Made by a program: the position numbers and the translations under genes. From the IMG/VR virus record IMGVR_UViG_3300027863_001395, positions 1 to 37,689 of that record: 37,689 bases of DNA; one strand, given 5' to 3'. Positions 6,020 through 30,709 of the stretch are shown here, one piece after another. Numbering within the stretch: position 1 is the stretch's first letter; each line of letters opens with the position of its first letter. Source of the DNA: a virus (taxonomy: Duplodnaviria > Caudoviricetes). Under the pieces are notes generated by a model. That model was not told the DNA's origin and ran no database searches. It worked only from the letters and a program-made list of their open reading frames with translations.

Positions 6020-6340
6020 ATGCCTGAACCGATTTTGACAGCAGAATTAACCGACATAATTGAAGAAACCAGCCTCGCAAACCTTGATGAGAAGTTAGAA
6101 GAGAACATAAAATATATTTTGGACAGAGAAGGTTTCAAATACTATGATGTCGTCGTCCCCCCAATAAGCGTAGAGTGGGAATTGTCAGATGAAATCCTCC
6201 TTTATTCAGCAGACTTTGAAATCTTTTCCTCACAAAATGAAATATCATATTATGGTGTAGTATATGGTACAATGTCGCCGGTGGACGAGAACACTGTCGA
6301 AATCCGTGACATGACAATAGAAGTTTATGAAAAAGATTAG
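6020..6340 (+). CDS. Highly acidic small protein (MPEPILT...)
   Basis: ATG 6020 lies 23 nt after TTTAAATA (5989-5996); D/E-rich. Confidence 0.75.
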   Translation: MPEPILTAELTDIIEETSLANLDEKLEENIKYILDREGFKYYDVVVPPISVEWELSDEILLYSADFEIFSSQNEISYYGVVYGTMSPVDENTVEIRDMTIEVYEKD

Positions 6341-6341
6341 T

Positions 6342-6710
6342 ATGCCAAAGTTTGTTGTTCAAGAACATCATGCCAAGAAGGCTGGACTACACTATGATTT
6401 TAGGCTAGAACATGAGGGTGTGCTCAAAAGTTGGGCTTGTAGAAAGCCTCCTCCAACTGTGGTGGGAAGAAGGGTTCTTGCAGTAGAAACGGAAGACCAT
6501 CCTCTCTGGTATCTGACTTTCGAGGGAGAGATTGAAAGCAGTTACGGTAAAGGGACAGTTAAAATATGGGACACGGGAGAATATGAGATGGTTTCTGAAG
6601 AACCTGACAAGATTGTCTTCATCTTATACGGTGAAAAGTTGAAGGGATACTATGCTCTCGTGAAAATGGATGCTGACAACTGGTTGCTTATGAAAGTGGA
6701 CACCCTCTAG
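6342..6710 (+). CDS. Stand-alone LigD-type DNA 3'-phosphoesterase (PE domain)
   Basis: FVVQEHHA..LHYDFRLE..GVLKSWA..EDHPLWY..FEGEI..YGKGTVKIWDTG signature. Confidence 0.92.
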   Translation: MPKFVVQEHHAKKAGLHYDFRLEHEGVLKSWACRKPPPTVVGRRVLAVETEDHPLWYLTFEGEIESSYGKGTVKIWDTGEYEMVSEEPDKIVFILYGEKLKGYYALVKMDADNWLLMKVDTL

Positions 6711-8007: not shown

Positions 8008-9057
8008 ATGGAAACAAACATTATTGAAGTAAACCATGAGACGTTGGCCAGGGATTTAGAGTATTTTTGGAAAAACTTTAGACCATCTCCTGCCGTCGGA
8101 ATAGTTGGAGAACCTGGTATTGGCAAAACTGAAATTGTTCAAAATGTGGCAAGAAAATTAAATTTAGAATACGTTTACTATAATCCCGTAAGAAGAAACC
8201 CTAACACTGTAACAGGAATTCCTTTCGTCAAAGGAGATTATGCAAAATGGATACCTTTTGAGACCTTCAAGTTTCTTCCAGAAAAAACTTATGTCTTCCA
8301 CATTGATGAACTGACCAATGCACCTCCAATGATACAAGCATCTTTGTTGAACGTTATCCTTGAAAGGAAAGCTGAAGACTTCACTATCCCTGACAATGTT
8401 CACATTGTAACATCAGGCAATCTCTCATCTCATTCAAAGGCTTCTTTTGACTTCATTGAACCGCTACCATCAAGGTTGGCATTGTATCAGCTGAAGCCTC
8501 CGACAGCAGAAGAGTGGGGAATATGGGCTGTCCAAAACGGTGTCCATCCTCTCATAATCACTTTCATTCATCTTAACCCTAACCTCTTATTAGAGAAAAA
8601 CGGTACTGTCTTATATGCTACTCCACGTGGCTGGGCGAGAGCAGGAAAATTCGTAAAAGATGAACTTTCTTTAGAGGATATGGGAAGAATTGTTTCATCT
8701 TTTGTTGGAGTGAATGCGGGGATTGCTTTCAGAAATTGGGCTGTAATAAGAGACCAACTGCCACGAAGTCTCGAAGATGCTCTGCTCTTGAAGGATGAAA
8801 AGTTTCTTAACGCTTTAAAGGAGGAGAAAACTGATGTCATATTCTACACAATCACTTCTCTTACAAAAAGCGAAATCTTGACGAAAAGGTTCAACGACGT
8901 GCCAAAGTTTATTGAAGCACTTGAACCAGAATTTCAAATTATAGCCTTTAGAATGTTTAGAACGAATGAGAAATGGTTTACAATGCTTAACACGAACAAA
9001 AGATTACAGGATTGGGCGATTTCAAAAATAAAGGAGTGGGGTGCTACTGTAAGATGA
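8008..9057 (+). CDS. MoxR-like AAA+ ATPase
   Basis: Walker A GEPGIGKT, Walker B FHIDE, TSGN sensor, PLPSR, TPRGW. Confidence 0.92.
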   Translation: METNIIEVNHETLARDLEYFWKNFRPSPAVGIVGEPGIGKTEIVQNVARKLNLEYVYYNPVRRNPNTVTGIPFVKGDYAKWIPFETFKFLPEKTYVFHIDELTNAPPMIQASLLNVILERKAEDFTIPDNVHIVTSGNLSSHSKASFDFIEPLPSRLALYQLKPPTAEEWGIWAVQNGVHPLIITFIHLNPNLLLEKNGTVLYATPRGWARAGKFVKDELSLEDMGRIVSSFVGVNAGIAFRNWAVIRDQLPRSLEDALLLKDEKFLNALKEEKTDVIFYTITSLTKSEILTKRFNDVPKFIEALEPEFQIIAFRMFRTNEKWFTMLNTNKRLQDWAISKIKEWGATVR

Positions 9058-10205
9058 AGGACAAGAAAGAACTGCTTAAGGAACTGAAAAGAAGGATTGT
9101 CTTCAAATACTTTAATCCTTTCGTGGCAGTCTTCAGCCACCTTATTTTAAAAGCGGACATTGACTTCGTTGACATGACATCAGATGAATTGGAATGTTAC
9201 GCCTTTACCGACGGAGAAAAAATTTTTATTCCAAAAGATGTCAGAGAATGGGATACTGAAAAGATTGCTGTCGTAGTCTTACATGAGATACTTCATCTTT
9301 GTAGAGACGATTTTGAACGAAGCCAACACGTGGAAAGTCCAGAACTCTGGAATCAACTTTCTGACGCATATATTAACAAATGGATTTTGAAAGGAGGATT
9401 TGAAGAGGATGATTTACCGGAATACTGTATAACGGAAAGCATGTTTTCTGATGTGCTAGGAAAAAATTGGACAGAAAATTATACAACAGAACAGGCTTAC
9501 ACTCTCCTGATAAGGAAAGGTGGTAAACCTTTTTCGTTTCCAAAACATCATGTGAGTATTAAAGAGTCTAAAAGACAGCCGAAGAAGATTAATGAATGGA
9601 GAGAAACATTTGAGAGTATATTTGGAATGTATGGTCTCGATACAGCAGATTTTCAGAAAATAAAAAATGAGATTATAGGTTCTCCTCCTCTTGACCTTCC
9701 AGCAGTCTTGAACAAGATTTTCAGAAGCCTTGTTCCAGAAGATTACAGTCACATAGAATATGATAAGGTTCTTTGGGCAAACGAGGGACTATATTTGCCT
9801 GACGTAGTAGGTTTCCAGAAAGCGAACATATTATTCTGTATAGACGTGAGCGGTTCAATAACCGTTGAAATGGCAAAAAAGTTTGTGAACATAGCATATT
9901 CTACCATGAAAAAATATCATCTTAAAGAAGCAGACTTCCTATACTTTGACTCGAAAATAAAGAACATAGAGAGGAGGAAAAGAGATTTTACAGAATTTTC
10001 TTACAGTGGAGGAGGAACATCATATGTTGACGTTTTCAAATTTCTTGAAACAAACTCTTACGATTTAGTGGTCATTTTAACAGACGGATACGGAGACTAT
10101 CCTGACGAGAAATTGGATGTTACGATTGTATGGGCTATACCGAGAGGAGGATATACGAGAGAAGCGAGAGAATATGGTGATGTTATAGAATTGCCACGTG
10201 TCTGA
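9054..10205 (+). CDS. Metallopeptidase-like (HExxH) plus VWA domain protein (DUF2201-type)
   Basis: AFTDG, LHEILH, MIDAS DVSGS...GGGT...LTDG; ATGA overlap with ATPase stop. Confidence 0.9.
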   Translation: MKDKKELLKELKRRIVFKYFNPFVAVFSHLILKADIDFVDMTSDELECYAFTDGEKIFIPKDVREWDTEKIAVVVLHEILHLCRDDFERSQHVESPELWNQLSDAYINKWILKGGFEEDDLPEYCITESMFSDVLGKNWTENYTTEQAYTLLIRKGGKPFSFPKHHVSIKESKRQPKKINEWRETFESIFGMYGLDTADFQKIKNEIIGSPPLDLPAVLNKIFRSLVPEDYSHIEYDKVLWANEGLYLPDVVGFQKANILFCIDVSGSITVEMAKKFVNIAYSTMKKYHLKEADFLYFDSKIKNIERRKRDFTEFSYSGGGTSYVDVFKFLETNSYDLVVILTDGYGDYPDEKLDVTIVWAIPRGGYTREAREYGDVIELPRV

Positions 10206-11346: not shown

Positions 11347-11464
11347 AGTTATGTTCTTGTATAACCTGTGTCATCCAATTTTTCTTCAATTTTTCTTGGA
11401 ACATATTCTATAAAAAATAGAGTAATCTTTATAAATTGGTTACCTGACAATAAGATGATAATAT

Positions 11465-12807: not shown

Positions 12808-12927
12808 GTGGAGGAAATTTTAAAGCAGTTGAGGAAACTGAAGGAAGAAGAGAAGACGTTGTTAAAGAAGCTTATCGAGTTATGCAGAAAGTATCAGTTG
12901 TCAGTTGACTTGGAAGAATTCGATTAA
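12808..12927 (+). CDS. 39-aa coiled-coil peptide
   Basis: GTG start, MEEILKQLRKLKEEEKTLLKKLIELCRKYQLSVDLEEFD; TTAA stop overlap with next gene. Confidence 0.5.
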   Translation: MEEILKQLRKLKEEEKTLLKKLIELCRKYQLSVDLEEFD

Positions 12928-13346
12928 GGATTCCTGTATTTCAGGTCATCGATATCGTACTTCAAGCTTCTTATAGCGTCTTCTATGTCTCTTAGTGCAC
13001 CCTGTAATGGTTCAGTGTACATTCCGCCACCGAATGTTAGACTGCCTTCAATCTTATCTAGTTTGTCGCAAATTCTATCCAAAGCGCCTAAGACGTCGTT
13101 TAACCCTATTGGCTTAAGATTATCCATCTTCTTGACATACTCATCTAATCGGGCATTTGTTAAATTCAACTCCTTTCTTATCTCCTCAAACTGCCTGTTT
13201 ATTGCCTGAAGAGTGTTAGTAATTTGCTGGGAAACAGATGTCAAACCATCTGCAGCCTTAAGAAACTTCTCACTTGCAACACTAATCTTCTCAACAATCT
13301 TGTCTAAATCCTTTTCAGGTTTTGACTTAAATAGTCCAAACACCAT
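12924..13346 (-). CDS. Coiled-coil hypothetical protein
   Basis: GGAGGTGG RBS, TTTATAAA...TTATACTA promoter. Confidence 0.8.
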   Translation of the reverse strand: MVFGLFKSKPEKDLDKIVEKISVASEKFLKAADGLTSVSQQITNTLQAINRQFEEIRKELNLTNARLDEYVKKMDNLKPIGLNDVLGALDRICDKLDKIEGSLTFGGGMYTEPLQGALRDIEDAIRSLKYDIDDLKYRNP

Positions 13347-13400
13347 TTTTCCTCCACCTCCATCATAGTATAAGATGAAGAGGTTTATAAACTTTTTTGA

Positions 13401-13479
13401 TGGTGGGGTCGGTAGGATTTGAACCTACGATTCCACAGTTCCAGGCTGTGAGGCCTAGACCAGGCTAGCTGACAACCCC
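13401..13479 (-). tRNA. tRNA-Pro(UGG), atypical (C33, A37), CCA encoded
   Basis: GGGGTTG/CGACCCC acceptor stem, D-loop AGCCTGGTCTA, CACAG-CCTGGAA-CTGTG anticodon arm, GTAGG-TTCAAAT-CCTAC T-arm, ACCA end; TTTATATA at 13503-13510 and T-run after. Confidence 0.88.
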
Positions 13480-13625
13480 GTCAGATTATCTTTTGAAGAA
13501 GTTATATAAACTTTGTTTTCCACGTGATAGGAAAATGAGCTTATGACACCATCCTTCTTCTACACCTAAAACCCTCTAACAAAATTTATAAATATGTTTT
13601 TGGGGAGGAGAAAACGTGATAAGAA

Positions 13626-14612: not shown

Positions 14613-14879
14613 ATGACTGTAAAACTGCTTTCTGTTGAAATGGACAATGTTAGAGTAATATCGAACGGTCAAGAGGAATATTATACAATCTATCCCAAAA
14701 GCAAGAGTATAACCTTTTCCCAACTGAAAAGTATTATCAAGGAGATGAAAGACTACAATTTTGTTGGCGTGTCAGTTGACAGGCGAGGACTGTTCCTCAT
14801 CTTTTCCAGGCACAAAAACTATTCTTCCGAAAACAGTTCAATAGCGTCTTCTACTTCACTCCAGTCTTCGAAGGCATAG
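14613..14879 (+). CDS. Hypothetical protein
   Basis: TATA-like box at 14581; 3' end overlaps HAD gene. Confidence 0.55.
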   Translation: MTVKLLSVEMDNVRVISNGQEEYYTIYPKSKSITFSQLKSIIKEMKDYNFVGVSVDRRGLFLIFSRHKNYSSENSSIASSTSLQSSKA

Positions 14880-15307
14880 TCTGCTTTAATCCAATGTTTT
14901 TTGTTATAGTCTTTCTTAAACAATAATCTTATCCCCTTGAATCCTCCCATTTCAACCCAAAGGTCTTCTATCATCACGTCAGTGTCTGAAGAATATTTTT
15001 GCACTTTATAGTCGAAGGGAATAAACTTTATTGAAACAATATCATGTAATGGTGTGTTCTCATACCATTTTTTTACCGCTTCCCTTTCCTGTTCTCTTGT
15101 CACAATCTTAACATCATGTCCATCTTCTACAAGCTTCAAGACCGTTTCAACAGCATTTGGATAAAATTTTATTTTATCAGAATGTTCTCTCCAGACAATA
15201 CTATACCATTTTCCCTTTTCTATCTCGTCAAACGGTTTCCCACTATATTTTTCCATAAGCTCTGGAGTGTTCACGAGTGTTCCATCCAAGTCCACTACTA
15301 TATTCAT
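14819..15307 (-). CDS. HAD-superfamily 5'(3')-deoxyribonucleotidase-like phosphatase
   Basis: VVDLDGTL (motif I), IVTR (II), K, MIED (IV), YN..DW C-terminus. Confidence 0.8.
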   Translation of the reverse strand: MNIVVDLDGTLVNTPELMEKYSGKPFDEIEKGKWYSIVWREHSDKIKFYPNAVETVLKLVEDGHDVKIVTREQEREAVKKWYENTPLHDIVSIKFIPFDYKVQKYSSDTDVMIEDLWVEMGGFKGIRLLFKKDYNKKHWIKADYAFEDWSEVEDAIELFSEE

Positions 15308-15333: not shown

Positions 15334-18300
15334 TTAAAGTTTACGTTTCAAGTTTTCTATTATCTTCTTCAACTGGTCTTCCTTCTTTTTTCCACCTTCT
15401 TCCTTCTCTTCTGTCCTTGCACCTTCTCCTCCACCCTCTGCTGGTGCTTCTGGTGTTCCCTTTTCTGTTGGAGGAGGCGATGGTGGAGGCTTTTCTCCAT
15501 GAGGTGGTAGAGGCAATTCCATTCCACCTTCCTCTTCTTCCTCCTCTTCCTCATATTCTTCTTTAGGCTTTAGACCAAGCATTGTCCTAGCCTCATTCGT
15601 GTCTATGATACCAGACTTTTTCAAGTTGATGATAAGAGGAACTTTGCTTGCAAAACTCTCTTCTCTAACAGGCTTCCACACAATCTTTGGAACACCAAAT
15701 TCGTCCATGAGAACCTTCGCCATTTCACCGTAGAGAGAATACATTATTTTCGGGAAAAGGTCTTGCTCAAGCTGAGAGGCGATAGAGTTTCTAATACTCT
15801 GAATAAACGTGAAATATGCTTCTTGAACCATCTGAGCTGTGTTACCCTGATACGCTACTTTACCGTTTCTCATTGTCACATAAAATCCTGTTGATGTGCT
15901 GAAACAGTAAACTTTACCTTTATAATGTTCTTTTACAATCCTATTCTTTGGAACATATTTCAGTTTCCTCTTTGAGACAAAAATCCTGTAAACTCTTCTC
16001 CTATTACCTCTCTTGTCTTCATAATATGAAATGCTTGCCGAATAACCTAATTTGACCACTATTTCAAGAAAGTCTTTTGCAAGTTGCTCTGACGTAGTAT
16101 AATATGTTATTGAACCCTTTTTGTCAATACTTCCATCTCCTAATATCATGCTGTCGAAAAGTATCTTCAACTGTCTCTTTGAAAGGTTCTTATACTTTGA
16201 TGGAATATGTTTGTTATAGCATCTTTCTCCAAAGTTTGAGGAGAGAAATGTACACAACTGTTTTCCGTCAACGTTCCATCTGACACAATCTTTGTCCTCA
16301 TATTCGTGATAATGGAAGGGAAGTTTTGAAAGAATAGTTCTTATCTTCTCTATTTTCTCAACATTCTTTTTTGTCTGTGCGATTGTGAGAAGATGATGGT
16401 TTACTGTATCCATTCCGCCTTCAGAAAGATATATTCCAACAAAAGAAAGGAAATCGTCCATTTTCACTTTAACATTTTCTCTAAACTCTGTCCTAAACCC
16501 TTCTTTCAATTCAATAGAAGGTATAATCTCCCATTCTTCCTCATGTCCCTCCCATTCCATACTATTTGGTAATATAAGCTGTGAGCCTATAATGTCTTCA
16601 GCATGACCTGTCAACCATTTTCCATCCAAGTTCTTTTTATAGACAATCTTATGTTCTGGTGTGACAGCAATGTCAGTGTTCTTGTCAACAAAATGTATGA
16701 TTTCACCGTCATAATCGTAGGCATATAATTTGATTGGTTTCTCCAACCATGCTCTACCACTTTCAGGCTCATAAACTACTATCTTTTCACCCTCCTTCAC
16801 CTCATTATGAAGTTTCCAACCGTTTTCTGTTAGAACATAAGTGTCTTCAACATAACATGCTCTATTGAGTCCTTCTGGTGCGACAAAATGTTTTGGAACA
16901 GTTAGAGCATATGCTCTCTGGTTATGCAACCATTCTAGCCAAAACTGTGTTGTCTGGAGGCCTGAAATTGGTGGATTGATTGGCTGAACATCTGTTATGA
17001 GACCTGTTGTTCTAATGAAGACGTCGCTACCCGGTTTCCTTGAACTGAACGACCTCATTATCTCTCTAAACTGTTCTGCTGTAACCTCAGGGCCTCCTGT
17101 CGGTGAACCCACTTTAACCAAGAACATTGGTTTAACGTACACTTTCATAATCTGGGAAATTGTTTCCTCATATTCTTTCAAAAGTTCTTCATGGTAGAGT
17201 ATTGGTCTCAACATGCTTTCTCCATAAACTGAACCATACATTTCAGTAGAAGGCATATATCTTAAATGAAGTATTTCGTCTGCAAGAAATGTTACTATTG
17301 GAACAGCATACAGTTGAGCATAACCCAGCACTGTGTTATGTACAAGAATACCTGACTTGGAAAGATAGCTTTGTGAGCCTGGTACTTCAAAGTCATATAC
17401 AACTCCCTTATAGAATGTCTTTTCTATCTTCTTAACTTTTGCTATAACAAAGTCTCCGTAAGCGGATGCTCTTGTCTTTTGTTTAACTCCTTCATCCCAC
17501 TTTAATATGTCCAATGGTTCAACGAACGCTTGAATAGTATAATCTGGTCTTCCTTTATCATGTTTCATGTTGAGAGATGCGATTATTCCAAAACGTTTGA
17601 GAAGGAGAACTATGTCTTCTGCCAATCTCTTGTCTCTTGTGAAGTATTTGAAACATGTTCTTGTGTTCTTATGCCATCCATCTCCATCCCAGAGACCTTT
17701 AACAAAATATTTCAGTTGTGAAAGAGGTAGAGTATACAGCCAAGAAGGTAATTCATTTTTCTTAGGTAACAGGAACTTGCACAGAGAATAGAGCACACGA
17801 TTGTAAATGGAGAGACAAGGAAATGAGATTGGTTTTTTCTGTTCCTTCCATACGATTCTCTTCTCGGTTATCCTTTTGCTGAACTTTATATTGTTCTCTT
17901 TAAGCCATGTTTCTAAGAAAACATTATTTTTCACTGAATCTCCTGAAAACAAAATTTTTCCCGTCCTCCTTTTATCTGTTGAAAGACATCCATCGGATAT
18001 AATGAGACCGAGAAAATAAAGTAGACCATTTGATTCAACTCTATCTTTCATTTTCGCTTTCGAGTGCCAAGATATTACTGTGGCATCTTCTGGTATGGGA
18101 ACATTGTTTTCTTTGATAAAGTCAAGTGGTAGAATATGTTTTTTCCTGTAATGATTATATTCTTGTCTAGGATATTTGATACCTTTCCTCTTAAGATACT
18201 CAATCACTTTATCTTCATATTCTTCAACTTTAAGAGACTGTGATTGTATACCAAAATTGTGTAACTCTTCAATATCCATGTTTTCCATAAAAACTTTTGA

Positions 18301-19425
18301 AATGCTAACGTTTAGAGGAATTTCTTTAAAAACAGGCAACTTTCTTGAAATTAGAACATAATCTCCTTCTCTAATTTCTCTTGTCTCCTTTAATTCAAGT
18401 TCTCCAGGAAACACATGATTCCTATATTTTGGTTTCCAAGTGAAGACACTATGGTTTCCTGTCGCCTTCACCGTTGAACCGTAAACAGTATGAATAGTGT
18501 ACATGTCTCCTGAGTAATAGTGTTCTATAAGATATGGTGAGATGTTGAGGACAACCTTGTCTTCGTCCATGCTTGGAAGAATGAAAGGATGCTGTATCAA
18601 TCTTGTCTCGTTTGAGAGATTGAAAACATTTTCTTTGGAAGCATTCCGTTTAACATAATCTTCTAACGTTTCAAGAACAAGCCTTCCATCATTAAAGAAT
18701 ATAAGCCTCTCATCTGGAGGATGAGAACCCCACGCATCCCTTCGCACTCTCATAAAATATGGGTCTAAAGGTTTAAGCCTCACTATTTCACCGTATGGGT
18801 TTATTAGTTCGTGGTCGGGATAAAGTTCCTTATGTTTTTCGGCAACATCCATTCTGTCAGTGTACCATACCTTTTTACCGTCGGCACCTTCTATCTCATA
18901 CGATGGCTTCAACTGTTCAAGGTCATGGCCTTCTTCGGGACAAATCCATACTCTGACAATTTCACAGTATGCGTTTCCGAAAGTGAGCATGTCTCTTACA
19001 AGAATCTTTAAAATGTTTATAAAATCGTGTCTTCTTAGAAAGTTCATCATATCCTCTATAACCATGTCAACGGGATAGTCGAGTTCAAATCCCCCACTTG
19101 TACACATCATCGTGTGAAGGTCTAAAGTGGCACGAATGAAAGGGTCTTTCGTCATATACTCTCTGTACTTGGAATAGTCTTCTATTGGAACGGCACCCCA
19201 AACCTTCTCCCACACTGAAACATAAGGATATGTTATGAGACCAAGTCCTACACCTGGAATATATCTTGTTCCCGCAAAATATGATGCCATAAAAGATTCC
19301 CAGTCAAAGTCCCTATACCATGCTTCACCTCTTTCAGCCTGTCTAACCTGTTCTGATGGAGGCTGTTTATATGATGCACTGAATGTTCTTTTTATCCTGT
19401 CTGACACGCCTTTAAAGAAACTCAT
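15334..19425 (-). CDS. Portal protein containing two inteins (about 560 aa after splicing)
   Basis: Extein motifs DMLTFGNAYCEIVR, LKPLDPYFMRV, EILHLR..YGESML, LTVPKHFV, DTNEARTMLGL; Glu/Pro-rich tail. Confidence 0.88.
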   Translation of the reverse strand: MSFFKGVSDRIKRTFSASYKQPPSEQVRQAERGEAWYRDFDWESFMASYFAGTRYIPGVGLGLITYPYVSVWEKVWGAVPIEDYSKYREYMTKDPFIRATLDLHTMMCTSGGFELDYPVDMVIEDMMNFLRRHDFINILKILVRDMLTFGNAYCEIVRVWICPEEGHDLEQLKPSYEIEGADGKKVWYTDRMDVAEKHKELYPDHELINPYGEIVRLKPLDPYFMRVRRDAWGSHPPDERLIFFNDGRLVLETLEDYVKRNASKENVFNLSNETRLIQHPFILPSMDEDKVVLNISPYLIEHYYSGDMYTIHTVYGSTVKATGNHSVFTWKPKYRNHVFPGELELKETREIREGDYVLISRKLPVFKEIPLNVSISKVFMENMDIEELHNFGIQSQSLKVEEYEDKVIEYLKRKGIKYPRQEYNHYRKKHILPLDFIKENNVPIPEDATVISWHSKAKMKDRVESNGLLYFLGLIISDGCLSTDKRRTGKILFSGDSVKNNVFLETWLKENNIKFSKRITEKRIVWKEQKKPISFPCLSIYNRVLYSLCKFLLPKKNELPSWLYTLPLSQLKYFVKGLWDGDGWHKNTRTCFKYFTRDKRLAEDIVLLLKRFGIIASLNMKHDKGRPDYTIQAFVEPLDILKWDEGVKQKTRASAYGDFVIAKVKKIEKTFYKGVVYDFEVPGSQSYLSKSGILVHNTVLGYAQLYAVPIVTFLADEILHLRYMPSTEMYGSVYGESMLRPILYHEELLKEYEETISQIMKVYVKPMFLVKVGSPTGGPEVTAEQFREIMRSFSSRKPGSDVFIRTTGLITDVQPINPPISGLQTTQFWLEWLHNQRAYALTVPKHFVAPEGLNRACYVEDTYVLTENGWKLHNEVKEGEKIVVYEPESGRAWLEKPIKLYAYDYDGEIIHFVDKNTDIAVTPEHKIVYKKNLDGKWLTGHAEDIIGSQLILPNSMEWEGHEEEWEIIPSIELKEGFRTEFRENVKVKMDDFLSFVGIYLSEGGMDTVNHHLLTIAQTKKNVEKIEKIRTILSKLPFHYHEYEDKDCVRWNVDGKQLCTFLSSNFGERCYNKHIPSKYKNLSKRQLKILFDSMILGDGSIDKKGSITYYTTSEQLAKDFLEIVVKLGYSASISYYEDKRGNRRRVYRIFVSKRKLKYVPKNRIVKEHYKGKVYCFSTSTGFYVTMRNGKVAYQGNTAQMVQEAYFTFIQSIRNSIASQLEQDLFPKIMYSLYGEMAKVLMDEFGVPKIVWKPVREESFASKVPLIINLKKSGIIDTNEARTMLGLKPKEEYEEEEEEEEGGMELPLPPHGEKPPPSPPPTEKGTPEAPAEGGGEGARTEEKEEGGKKKEDQLKKIIENLKRKL
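15841..16857 (-). mobile_element. Intein 2 (339 aa) with LAGLIDADG endonuclease
   Basis: A|CYVEDTYVLTENG block A, TPEH block B, GIYLSEG / MILGDG, VYCFST..YQGN|T. Confidence 0.9.
17335..18726 (-). mobile_element. Intein 1 (464 aa, Ser1) with LAGLIDADG endonuclease
   Basis: G|SHPPDE start, ATGNHS block B, GLIISDG / GLWDGDG, VYDFEV..LVHN|T. Confidence 0.9.
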
Positions 19426-29582: not shown

Positions 29583-30410
29583 ATGAGTTCAGTCATTGCA
29601 GTAGGTTACAAGGCCAAAGTAGGCTATGCTACTGAAACAACATATGGAGTGTCTCCTACTTCTACATCATACAGTTGGCTTGGTGCAACACAGAATATTA
29701 CGGTTAGAGGAGAATTGAATCCTGTCGCAGTCTATGAAATTGGAAACATAAGGTTTCCAAGCTACATTGTCCAGGGGCAGAGGGCTATTTCTATTGACGC
29801 AACATTTTATCCTCAAGACTATACAGTATTAAACCAATTCATTTCTAACCCAGATGCAAGTTACTCTATTGCCACACAGTTTCCGGACATTTCTCAAGCG
29901 ATAACAGTCTTCGGTGCAAAAGTTGAAACTATAAGGATAAGGGGTACAACGGGAGAGCCTCTTGAAGTATCATGCACTCTTCAAGCTCAAAACTTCAGTT
30001 ACAGTCTTCCAACTGGTGTAACAATGCCAAGTGACCCAAGTAAGACGCCATACTACTTTGCAACCATTTCAGTGAAAAAGGATACTGTTGTCGTGCCAAA
30101 GGTTCTAGAGTTCAGTATGGAGTTAAGAAATAGGTTGGAGAGAGTGTACAAGTTTGGACAGTTTTGGGTGAGGGCTATACCAACTTTGACGGCAAGCATT
30201 GAAGGAAGTATGAGAGTAACATTTGAAAATCTTGACGAATACAATCAGCTTACAGCATTTTCTGCTTCAACCTTGACACTTGACCTTGGAGACGGACACA
30301 GTGTCAGCGTAAACAACGCAATCTTTTCTTCAATAGAAAAGCCTGTTAGACCAGATGAGTTGATTGCTTTAACAGTCAACTTCCAGGGAACGGGGGTGAC
30401 AGTATCATGA
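29583..30410 (+). CDS. Major tail tube protein
   Basis: VGYATETTYG N-terminus, beta-rich, immediately before chaperone and tape measure. Confidence 0.8.
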   Translation: MSSVIAVGYKAKVGYATETTYGVSPTSTSYSWLGATQNITVRGELNPVAVYEIGNIRFPSYIVQGQRAISIDATFYPQDYTVLNQFISNPDASYSIATQFPDISQAITVFGAKVETIRIRGTTGEPLEVSCTLQAQNFSYSLPTGVTMPSDPSKTPYYFATISVKKDTVVVPKVLEFSMELRNRLERVYKFGQFWVRAIPTLTASIEGSMRVTFENLDEYNQLTAFSASTLTLDLGDGHSVSVNNAIFSSIEKPVRPDELIALTVNFQGTGVTVS

Positions 30411-30709
30411 CAGAAAATTTTAGGGAAATTGAAGTCAATGGCAAAAAGTATAAGATTAGAAAATGGGTTCTAGGAGACAGGAAAGTTTTAATGAAGTATA
30501 TGAACAAGGACTTGTCTCAAATTGACCCAGAAAAGATTGTTGAAATGGAAGCGGAACTGATTATGTTGTCTGTTATCGAACCAAAGTTTGAGAAAATGGA
30601 AGACGTGTTAGCACTCTCTCAAGAGGAAGCAGACGAACTCTTTTTCCAGATAATGACCTTCAACAAGCCTAAAAAGAATTTTTTAGAGGAGTTAAAGAAT
30701 ACATTCTAA
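30407..30709 (+). CDS. Tail assembly chaperone (gpG-like)
   Basis: IEVNGKKYKIR; position between tube and tape measure. Confidence 0.8.
   Translation: MTENFREIEVNGKKYKIRKWVLGDRKVLMKYMNKDLSQIDPEKIVEMEAELIMLSVIEPKFEKMEDVLALSQEEADELFFQIMTFNKPKKNFLEELKNTF

What the first reader, a model, noticed from the sequence alone, without database searches (positions are those of the whole stretch)
13401..13479. tRNA-Pro(UGG) lacking U33 and G37
The anticodon loop is CC-UGG-AA: C33 replaces near-invariant U33 and A37 replaces the G37 (m1G) that normally suppresses +1 frameshifting in tRNA-Pro. It also has an A10-C25 mismatch and C9. Acceptor, anticodon and T stems, CCA, TATA box and terminator are all intact, so it does not look like random decay. 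It could be a nuclease-resistant replacement tRNA, a frameshift-promoting tRNA, or a decoy/non-decoding tRNA.
Basis: partly seen in the sequence, partly recalled or inferred. Interest (0 to 1): 0.7.

Follow-up and report, generated by a model that had tools for sequence, protein, structure and literature searches.

The report
Archaeal virus tRNA with rewired loop
A hot-spring archaeal virus carries an intact proline tRNA gene with two rare letters beside its anticodon; it likely still reads proline codons and likely changed to hide from host tRNA-cutting enzymes, and its probable host lineage uses one of these 'forbidden' letters in its own chromosomal tRNAs.

Summary
The loop C32-C33-UGG-A37-A38 is real: an independent assembly and strain contigs keep it. 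C9 and A10 are not oddities; they are shared with tRNA-Pro(CGG) of an archaeal order, the probable hosts (9 of 11 diagnostic sites). The gene is likely an anticodon-switched CGG tRNA with compensated stems. There is no T-run terminator. The loop is not unique: 39 of 120 sampled IMG/VR matches are unrelated viral tRNA-Pro with the same seven letters; roughly 3% of matching viral Pro(UGG) carry C33 and 16% A37, against 0 of 109 Thermoproteota genes. C33 also sits in the chromosomal tRNA-Arg(UCU) of 9 of 10 genomes of the probable host order, so C33 likely decodes there. Best reading: a working replacement tRNA-Pro whose loop escapes a host tRNA nuclease (0.42); no nuclease was identified and nothing was assayed. 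A frameshifter is unlikely. This scan reported C33 phage tRNAs at least seven times before on other DNA. New here: an archaeal case, the anticodon switch and the chromosomal C33.

The parts
13401..13479 (-). tRNA-Pro(UGG) gene with encoded CCA; body of the host-order tRNA-Pro(CGG) type
   Evidence: ARAGORN, Rfam 42.4 bits, diagnostic sites 9 CGG / 1 UGG (position 34) / 1 neither
13439..13445 (-). anticodon loop C32 C33 U34 G35 G36 A37 A38; differs from the nearest host-order CGG loop (G403, G409) by U33C, C34U and G37A
   Evidence: unchanged in L056 and in X6, X8, X10
13451..13471 (-). D arm and neighbours: C9, A10, G11-C24, C12-G23, U13.G22 inherited; C25 (A10.C25 mismatch) and U26 private to the virus
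13503..13519 (-). BRE-like purine run (13519-13511) and TATA box (13510-13503), ending 23 nt before G1; predicted short-leader transcript
   Evidence: sequence; similar spacing upstream of host-order Pro(CGG) genes; function inferred
13384..13398 (-). A6G-TTTATAAA directly after the CCA: predicted BRE/TATA of the next gene, not a T-run terminator
   Evidence: sequence; function inferred
12924..13346 (-). context: 140-aa coiled-coil protein gene downstream; homologues lie in cellular contigs with no tRNA upstream

Best explanation
The gene is an intact viral tRNA-Pro(UGG), likely made by capturing a host tRNA-Pro(CGG) and switching the wobble base, that likely still decodes proline and whose C33 and A37 likely hide it from a host tRNA-cutting enzyme, so that it would replace destroyed host tRNA-Pro during infection. 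Shown: sequence, fold, strain conservation, CGG-type body, recurrence of the loop in unrelated viruses, chromosomal C33 in the probable host order. Inferred: transcription from the TATA box; charging by host ProRS through G1-C72, G35, G36 and A73; reading of CCA (46% of the virus's Pro codons) and CCG; independence from m1G37 and, if archaeal Elp3 needs U33 as the human and yeast enzymes do, an unmodified U34. Not shown: any nuclease, any cleavage, any expression.
For: Fold and identity elements intact (identity set from passages of PMC9976931). Compensated stems against host-order CGG tRNAs, and 2 of the 11 virus-private changes (U25C, U33C) run against the GC-to-AU drift of most others. Convergence: of 120 sampled matches to a C33-UGG pattern, 80 are ARAGORN tRNA-Pro(UGG) with C33 (75 unique, 58 clusters at 85%, median identity 67%), 39 with the identical loop. 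Among C32-type viral Pro(UGG), 19 of 86 have C33 against 30 of 657 other C32 viral tRNAs (p=2.7e-7), and 61 of 86 have A37. In 301 Thermoproteota genomes all 109 in-register Pro(UGG) rows of 136 are U33/G37 (counted by eye; 20 of the 27 other rows fetched, none a Pro(UGG)). C33 is tolerated in the probable host order: Arg(UCU) in 9 of 10 genomes, Gly(CCC) in 6 of 10; AGA is 568 of 1050 Arg codons in sampled G001 genes. No decoding gap to fill: all three Pro isoacceptors occur in the order and the CCA share is 0.46 in both virus and G001. PIN-domain genes occur in 10 of 10 order genomes. Precedents: T5 tRNA-Lys resists AriB through anticodon-arm changes (PMC11464382); any change at position 37 abolished gamma-toxin cleavage (PMC2275089); anticodon-switched A37 tRNAs bypass m1G37 in E. 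coli (PMC8643618). Weak hint: predicted end-healing enzymes in the window (LigD phosphoesterase 6327-6710; HAD phosphatase 14819-15307).
Against: No tRNA-Pro nuclease is identified; PIN genes are common (9 of 14 control genomes). Over all matching viral Pro(UGG), C33 is about 3%, no higher than in other viral isotypes (34 of 951, 3.6%), so the enrichment holds only within the C32 class; 0 of 104 U32-type Pro(UGG) had C33. U33C had no effect on gamma-toxin cleavage, and sup4-U33C lost ochre suppression in yeast (PMC11096365). G37 and its methylation aid prolylation in E. coli, so A37 may cost charging. The cloverleaf is weaker than the host's (-4.4 against -7.3 to -10.3 kcal/mol at 70 C, unmodified; 13 against 15-17 G-C pairs). 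Conservation over the flanks is not significant (p=0.20). The trees do not resolve a CGG against a UGG origin, and the true host is not sampled (best identity 63 of 79). No distant viral homologue of this gene was found.
Confidence: 0.42

Rival explanations
1. A working supplementary tRNA-Pro whose C33 and A37 are merely tolerated (relaxed selection on an extra copy, with A37 saving the need for Trm5 methylation); no nuclease is involved.
For: C33 occurs at a similar low level across many viral isotypes (34 of 951). The probable host order already tolerates C33. Most other virus-private changes are GC-to-AU drift. A37 is common in viral tRNAs of other G37-type families too (Leu UAG 27 of 41, His 19 of 32).
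Against: C33 and A37 concentrate in the C32 class of Pro(UGG) (p=2.7e-7), and the same full loop recurs on many unrelated bodies. U33C is against the drift direction. Pro codon use gives little reason to supplement (chi-square p=0.008, driven by CCG 10% against 6%).
Confidence: 0.27
2. A non-decoding decoy or regulator that binds ProRS, a modification enzyme or a nuclease without serving the ribosome.
For: Four departures at once (C25, U26, C33, A37) and an Rfam score about 13 bits below the host's. U33C blocks Elongator while binding is kept (PMC11096365). One strain changes the encoded CCA.
Against: The anticodon and all named archaeal ProRS identity elements are kept. Most host-order tRNA genes also lack an encoded CCA. 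Chromosomal C33 tRNAs are the only Arg(UCU) found in the genomes checked.
Confidence: 0.12
3. An integration-related or decaying relic (attP-like copy, or a recently captured tRNA on its way out).
For: Conservation is not significantly above the flanks. Mobile elements in this order appear to target tRNA loops (3' half copies in L584 and L609). The contig is partial, so an integrase cannot be excluded.
Against: The gene is full length with a promoter-like site. Its 3' part differs from host-order tRNAs at 51/63 and varies among strains at 67, 68 and 74, unlike an attP core. Stem changes are compensated. No integrase among 53 ORFs scanned.
Confidence: 0.09
4. C33 is a genomic state only, edited to U33 in the RNA by a host deaminase that also serves the host's C33 Arg(UCU) and Gly(CCC).
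For: It would explain chromosomal C33 in apparently essential tRNAs of genomes that all keep Elp3. C-to-U tRNA editing exists in an archaeon (Methanopyrus C8; recalled, no call).
Against: No editing enzyme was sought or found. It does not explain A37, nor C33 across unrelated bacterial phages.
Confidence: 0.05
5. A +1 frameshift-promoting tRNA that expresses viral genes across Pro codons.
For: It lacks m1G37, which suppresses +1 slippage on CCC-N codons (passages of PMC8643618 and 10.1101/2020.09.01.277525).
Against: The loop has 7 nt, and A37 cannot pair with C as unmethylated G37 could (inference). Across 50 ORFs only 2 Pro codons give a +1 extension of 30 aa or more, and 0 join a downstream gene; other codon families give 2-21. 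The one evident programmed shift is a -1 site on Phe-Leu codons.
Confidence: 0.05

Closest known systems
Nuclease-resistant phage replacement tRNAs: T5 tRNA-Lys against PARIS AriB (PMC11464382), phage tRNA-Thr(UGU) against P2-OLD (PMC12445682), and the anticodon-loop hypothesis of van den Berg et al. 2023 (PMC10264068)
   Same: A virus-encoded, otherwise canonical tRNA that differs from the host's cognate tRNA in the anticodon stem-loop.
   Different: Archaeal host; proline isotype; changes at the near-invariant 33 and 37; no nuclease known and no resistance tested. In the passages and supplement rows seen, none of these papers discusses C33 or a tRNA-Pro target.
tRNA-Val(GAC) of cluster C1 mycobacteriophages (144 of 161 phages; Supplementary File 1a of PMC10264068)
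   Same: A published phage tRNA sequence with C at position 33 and intact stems (read from the row by me).
   Different: Valine, G34, bacterial host; the row is labelled only 'mutations'. The tRNA-Pro(UGG) row shown from the same table has U33 and G37.
tRNA-Pro(CGG) of the order of G001/G002 (G002's record title: Nitrososphaeria archaeon)
   Same: 59-63 of 79 positions (the best match among 401 phylum genomes was G001); C9, A10, U13.G22, A28-U42 and the variable loop.
   Different: Virus-private U6, C25, U26, A30-U40, C33, U34, A37, G44, A51-U63.
Natural non-U33 cellular tRNAs: eukaryotic initiator tRNA-Met (C33) and Candida tRNA-Ser(CAG) (G33), named as the exceptions in PMC5041475
   Same: Loss of U33 in a maintained tRNA.
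   Different: Those are an initiator and a recoded tRNA; here C33 is in a viral elongator-type tRNA and in ordinary chromosomal Arg(UCU) and Gly(CCC) genes of archaea.

Membership tests
tRNA (Rfam RF00005), archaeal tRNA-Pro | cloverleaf and tertiary core | tested here: met
   42.4 bits over gathering 29; 20 of 21 stem pairs and all five core tertiary pairs
tRNA (Rfam RF00005), archaeal tRNA-Pro | ProRS identity elements G1-C72, G35, G36, A73 | tested here: met
   sequence against the set in passages of PMC9976931
tRNA (Rfam RF00005), archaeal tRNA-Pro | U33 and G37 as in cellular tRNA-Pro(UGG) | tested here: not met
   C33 and A37; 109 of 109 in-register Thermoproteota rows are U33/G37
tRNA (Rfam RF00005), archaeal tRNA-Pro | expressed, prolylated and used on the ribosome | not testable with these tools
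   needs RNA data and assays
Nuclease-resistant viral replacement tRNA (T5 tRNA-Lys type) | differs from the host cognate tRNA in the anticodon stem-loop | tested here: met
   (against order-level relatives; the true host is not sampled)
Nuclease-resistant viral replacement tRNA (T5 tRNA-Lys type) | host encodes a nuclease that cuts this isotype | tested here: inconclusive
   PIN domains in 10 of 10 order genomes, 1-21 each, targets unknown; other nuclease families not searched
Nuclease-resistant viral replacement tRNA (T5 tRNA-Lys type) | resists cleavage and rescues infection | not testable with these tools
   needs cleavage and infection assays
+1 frameshift-suppressor tRNA-Pro (suf type; features recalled) | 8-nt loop, or G37 left unmethylated | tested here: not met
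   7-nt loop with A37
+1 frameshift-suppressor tRNA-Pro (suf type; features recalled) | a viral gene that needs a +1 shift at a Pro codon | tested here: not met
   0 joins to a downstream gene in 50 ORFs; the contig is partial
attP copy of a host tRNA | identity with the host tRNA 3' part, fixed among strains | tested here: not met
   A51/U63 private; positions 67, 68 and 74 vary among strains
attP copy of a host tRNA | integrase in the element | tested here: inconclusive
   none among 53 ORFs, but no terminal repeat and no terminase or major capsid hit, so the genome is incomplete

The most novel reading that the evidence does not exclude
A widespread, still unidentified family of tRNA-Pro anticodon nucleases acts in both bacteria and archaea and reads U33 and G37; viruses of both domains escape it by converging on the loop CC-UGG-AA, and the same pressure has fixed C33 in essential chromosomal tRNAs of several Thermoproteota lineages, whose ribosomes decode without the textbook U33.
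Probability: 0.15. Interest if true: 0.8.

Novelty: new variant of a known kind. Interest (0 to 1): 0.48.

Why it matters
If right, tRNA-cutting immunity and viral tRNA counter-defence, so far shown in bacteria, would extend to archaea, and the recurrent loop would give a ready substrate pair (host loop against viral loop) for finding the missing tRNA-Pro nuclease. Independently of that, ordinary chromosomal tRNA-Arg(UCU) genes with C33 in several Thermoproteota lineages are natural exceptions to the rule that elongator tRNAs need U33. They make it directly testable whether U33 is required for decoding and for Elp3 modification, or is restored by editing. For annotation: low-scoring viral tRNAs with C33 or A37 should not be dismissed as pseudogenes.

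Tried and rejected
Assembly error: rejected. Expression: no RNA holder listed among 19 runs; 8 of the 19 were laid, all DNA contigs. Loose pattern scan for relatives: 86 of 87 loci were unrelated, 1 was the close relative. Low-threshold ARAGORN hits in related loci were noise. Diverged viral relatives with a syntenic tRNA: none found through the 140-aa protein, the tRNA 5' pattern or INPHARED; the tail-tube search gave only 4 proteins and was not followed. Host by CRISPR spacer: no array at the three short matches examined. Host by the cellular contigs carrying the 140-aa gene: L091 DNA matched 0 of 5 order genomes and its Mre11 only weakly; L093's Mre11 is 64% identical in G403 but 46% or less in four others, so that gene is not a reliable host marker. 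Link between C33 and loss of Elp3: rejected; Elp3 is present in all 10 order genomes and in all 14 other C33-Arg genomes. Codon compensation or a missing host isoacceptor: not supported. Re-registered GGA (Ser) reading of the loop: rejected on geometry and the short variable loop (inference). Trees (FastTree, IQ-TREE) did not resolve the origin. The cloverleaf energies were invalid (bracket string of the wrong length) and were redone. Apparent C33 rows in the cellular control were off-register Pro(GGG) in 9 of 9 ARAGORN-called cases; two more gave no call. Literature: searches listed no paper on C33 in viral tRNA-Pro or in archaeal tRNA-Arg(UCU) (one search returned 0 papers; one search returned 8, none on phages by title or abstract start). 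Subscription journals and older tRNA surveys are largely missing from the library, and bioRxiv supplements are closed, so a prior mention in tRNA catalogues cannot be excluded.

Full report
Observation. The window is a whole 37.7-kb record of a tailed virus: portal with two inteins, tail tube, tape measure, head closure and ERCC4 nuclease among 53 ORFs scanned. There is no terminal repeat and no terminase or capsid hit, so it is a partial genome. The two runs holding half or more of the region are hot-spring metagenomes. ARAGORN finds one tRNA, Pro(UGG), at 13479-13401; Rfam scores it 42.4 bits. The loop is C32 C33 U34 G35 G36 A37 A38, with C9, A10.C25 and U26; 20 of 21 stem pairs and all core tertiary pairs are present. 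A TATA box ends 23 nt before G1. The claimed terminator is absent on the tRNA strand: no run of four or more T in 200 nt, and an A6G-TTTATAAA site that looks like the next gene's promoter.

Not an error. An independently assembled relative (L056/L092, 96% identical) keeps the loop and differs only at 67 and 68. Contigs from X6, X8 and X10 span the gene with an unchanged loop; their differences are G67A, A68G, C16U and C74U, and none breaks a pair. X13 covers the loop only near a contig end. X2-X5 list only G67A in the gene, but that table was cut. Pooled, 4 of 79 tRNA sites vary against 18 of 200 flanking sites (p=0.20), so strain data alone do not prove selection.

Origin. Among 401 genomes of the phylum of G001, the best match to the gene is in G001 itself, a genome first reached through a 35%-identical homologue of the neighbouring 140-aa gene. 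G002, of the same order, is titled Nitrososphaeria archaeon. All 10 genomes of the order matched. The closest genes are tRNA-Pro(CGG), 59-63 of 79 identical, against 55-58 for Pro(UGG). At 11 sites that separate the two isoacceptors the virus has the CGG state at 9, the UGG state only at 34, and neither at 1. So C9 and A10 are inherited, and the likely history is capture of a CGG tRNA, then C34U, U33C and G37A, with compensated G30-C40 to A-U and G51-C63 to A-U. Caveats: the trees did not resolve the origin and the true host is unsampled. A 39-46-nt match between window 11373-11418 and a gene start in 5 of 10 order genomes supports the host order. The 140-aa gene does not, since its closest homologues sit in contigs of mixed affinity.

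Is the loop unique? No. A scan of IMG/VR for Y32-C33-UGG-R37-A38 plus a T arm gave about 390 stretches. Of 120 sampled, 80 are tRNA-Pro(UGG) with full anticodon stems: 75 unique, 58 clusters at 85%, median identity 67%, mostly starting with C as bacterial tRNA-Pro do, 39 with this window's exact loop. The other 40 were off-register or not called as tRNA. Scans neutral at position 33 gave, for C32, 94 of 120 loci and 86 unique genes (61 A37, 19 C33, 11 both); for U32, 111 of 120 loci and 104 unique genes (9 A37, 0 C33). Scaling by the tool's estimates gives roughly 3% C33, 16% A37 and 2% both among matching viral Pro(UGG); host att copies in prophages dilute these. Neighbouring viral tRNAs of other anticodons carry C33 in 34 of 951, so Pro is not enriched overall, only within the C32 class (19 of 86 against 30 of 657, p=2.7e-7). 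The cellular control is clean: in 301 Thermoproteota genomes, 109 of 136 rows are Pro(UGG) loops, all U33/G37 (counted by eye); 20 of the other 27 rows were fetched and none was a Pro(UGG). No bacterial control was run. Earlier notes of this scan reported C33 in phage tRNAs at least seven times with a similar reading; they are unchecked AI notes and count as leads only. One of them, C33 in the mycobacteriophage C1 tRNA-Val(GAC), I confirmed in the supplement of PMC10264068.

Can C33 decode here? Probably. Full-length chromosomal tRNA-Arg(UCU) with C33 is present in 9 of 10 genomes of the order, and Gly(CCC) with C33 in 6 of 10. In the 6 genomes checked for both states no U33 Arg(UCU) was found (the single U33 row has no stem), although copies with loop introns would escape the pattern. 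AGA is 568 of 1050 Arg codons in sampled G001 genes, and by standard wobble rules it needs the UCU tRNA. In a 201-genome phylum sample 15 of 100 Arg(UCU) rows have C33. Of the 14 outside the order, 12 were confirmed in register (6 intronless, 6 with D-loop introns), 1 is cut by a contig end and 1 was not confirmed. All these genomes keep Elp3, although U33C abolishes Elongator modification in human and yeast systems (PMC11096365, passages). A review names only eukaryotic initiator tRNA and Candida tRNA-Ser as exceptions at 33 (PMC5041475, passages). RNA editing is not excluded.

Mechanism. The ProRS elements G1-C72, G35, G36 and A73 are kept (PMC9976931, passages). All three Pro isoacceptors occur in the order and codon use is close to the virus's (CCA 0.46 in both), so there is no gap to fill. 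A37 keeps the purine stack without Trm5 (inference); E. coli survives G37C in tRNA-Pro(UGG), and anticodon-switched A37 tRNAs bypass m1G37 loss (PMC8643618, passages). No +1 shift at a Pro codon joins two of 50 ORFs, and the evident programmed shift is -1 at T TTT TTA. What remains is a working tRNA whose loop differs from the host's at the bases that nucleases read, as shown for T5 tRNA-Lys and AriB (PMC11464382, passages) and for phage tRNA-Thr and OLD (PMC12445682, passages), and as proposed generally in PMC10264068 (first third of the text and supplement rows). For gamma-toxin, changes at 37 abolish cleavage but U33C does nothing (PMC2275089, passages), so the two changes need not serve the same end. 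PIN genes are in 10 of 10 order genomes but also in 9 of 14 controls. I put nuclease escape at 0.42, tolerated drift in a working copy at 0.27, decoy at 0.12, relic or attP at 0.09, editing at 0.05 and frameshifter at 0.05. Also read in passages, with nothing on C33 or A37 in tRNA-Pro: PMC13056530, PMC13015707, 10.1101/2022.05.14.491930, 10.1101/2020.09.01.277525.

Verdict. Real and maintained, but one member of a recurrent class of viral tRNAs rather than a singular oddity. It works like a nuclease-resistant replacement tRNA; membership is untested. New in what I could search: an archaeal-virus case, its origin by anticodon switch, the cross-domain recurrence of the CC-UGG-AA loop, and chromosomal C33 in archaeal elongator tRNAs. 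Interest 0.48.

Noticed in passing
G001:C24:39394-39468 (L172, L580) and L577, L581, L585, L588, L590, L592, L600-L602, L608; L610-L622 outside the order: Chromosomal tRNA-Arg(UCU) carries C33 in 9 of 10 genomes of the probable host order and in 15 of 100 rows of a phylum sample; tRNA-Gly(CCC) carries C33 in 6 of 10. Elp3 is present in all. Possibly of more interest than the finding itself.
   Followed up: yes
L584 (G002:C316:5587-5617) and L609 (G410:C19:315485-315515): 3' half copies of the C33 tRNA-Arg(UCU) and tRNA-Gly(CCC) that begin at the anticodon loop, as expected of attachment sites of integrated elements; G409 and G410 have two full Arg(UCU) copies.
   Followed up: no
window 11373-11418 (minus strand): A 39-46-nt intergenic stretch matches at 85-92% what appears to be the start of a conserved gene in 5 of 10 genomes of the order: a captured host fragment or an integration core.
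   Followed up: partly
window 30679-30685: T TTT TTA slippery site near the end of ORF 30407-30709; the -1 frame stays open to about 30906, just at the tape-measure start: a typical tail-assembly-chaperone frameshift.
   Followed up: partly
window 15334-19425 (minus strand): Portal protein of 1363 aa interrupted by two inteins with LAGLIDADG domains; also present in L092.
   Followed up: no
window 12924-13346; L091, L093, L095, L096, L098, L101: Homologues of the 140-aa coiled-coil gene (74-100% identical) lie in cellular contigs right after herA/nurA/mre11/rad50-type clusters, behind a shared short junction sequence and without the tRNA; the gene appears to move as a module.
   Followed up: partly
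window 6327-6710 and 14819-15307: A stand-alone LigD 3'-phosphoesterase and a HAD/NT5C-like phosphatase with a weak polynucleotide-kinase hit: predicted end-healing enzymes; no RNA ligase was detected.
   Followed up: no
L430:1190-1267 (MG592578.1) and L431:2999-3076 (OZ196439.1): Cultured Vibrio phages carry tRNA-Pro(UGG) with U33 and A37; the one in MG592578.1 is not annotated in the record.
   Followed up: partly
L310-L429 and L432-L551: C33 among other viral isotypes is highest in Ile(GAU) 6 of 26, Glu(UUC) 4 of 38, Val(UAC) 3 of 28 and Pro(CGG) 2 of 5.
   Followed up: no
window 8008-10205 and 1250-2263: A MoxR-type AAA ATPase next to a VWA/metallopeptidase gene, and a radical SAM-SPASM protein.
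   Followed up: no
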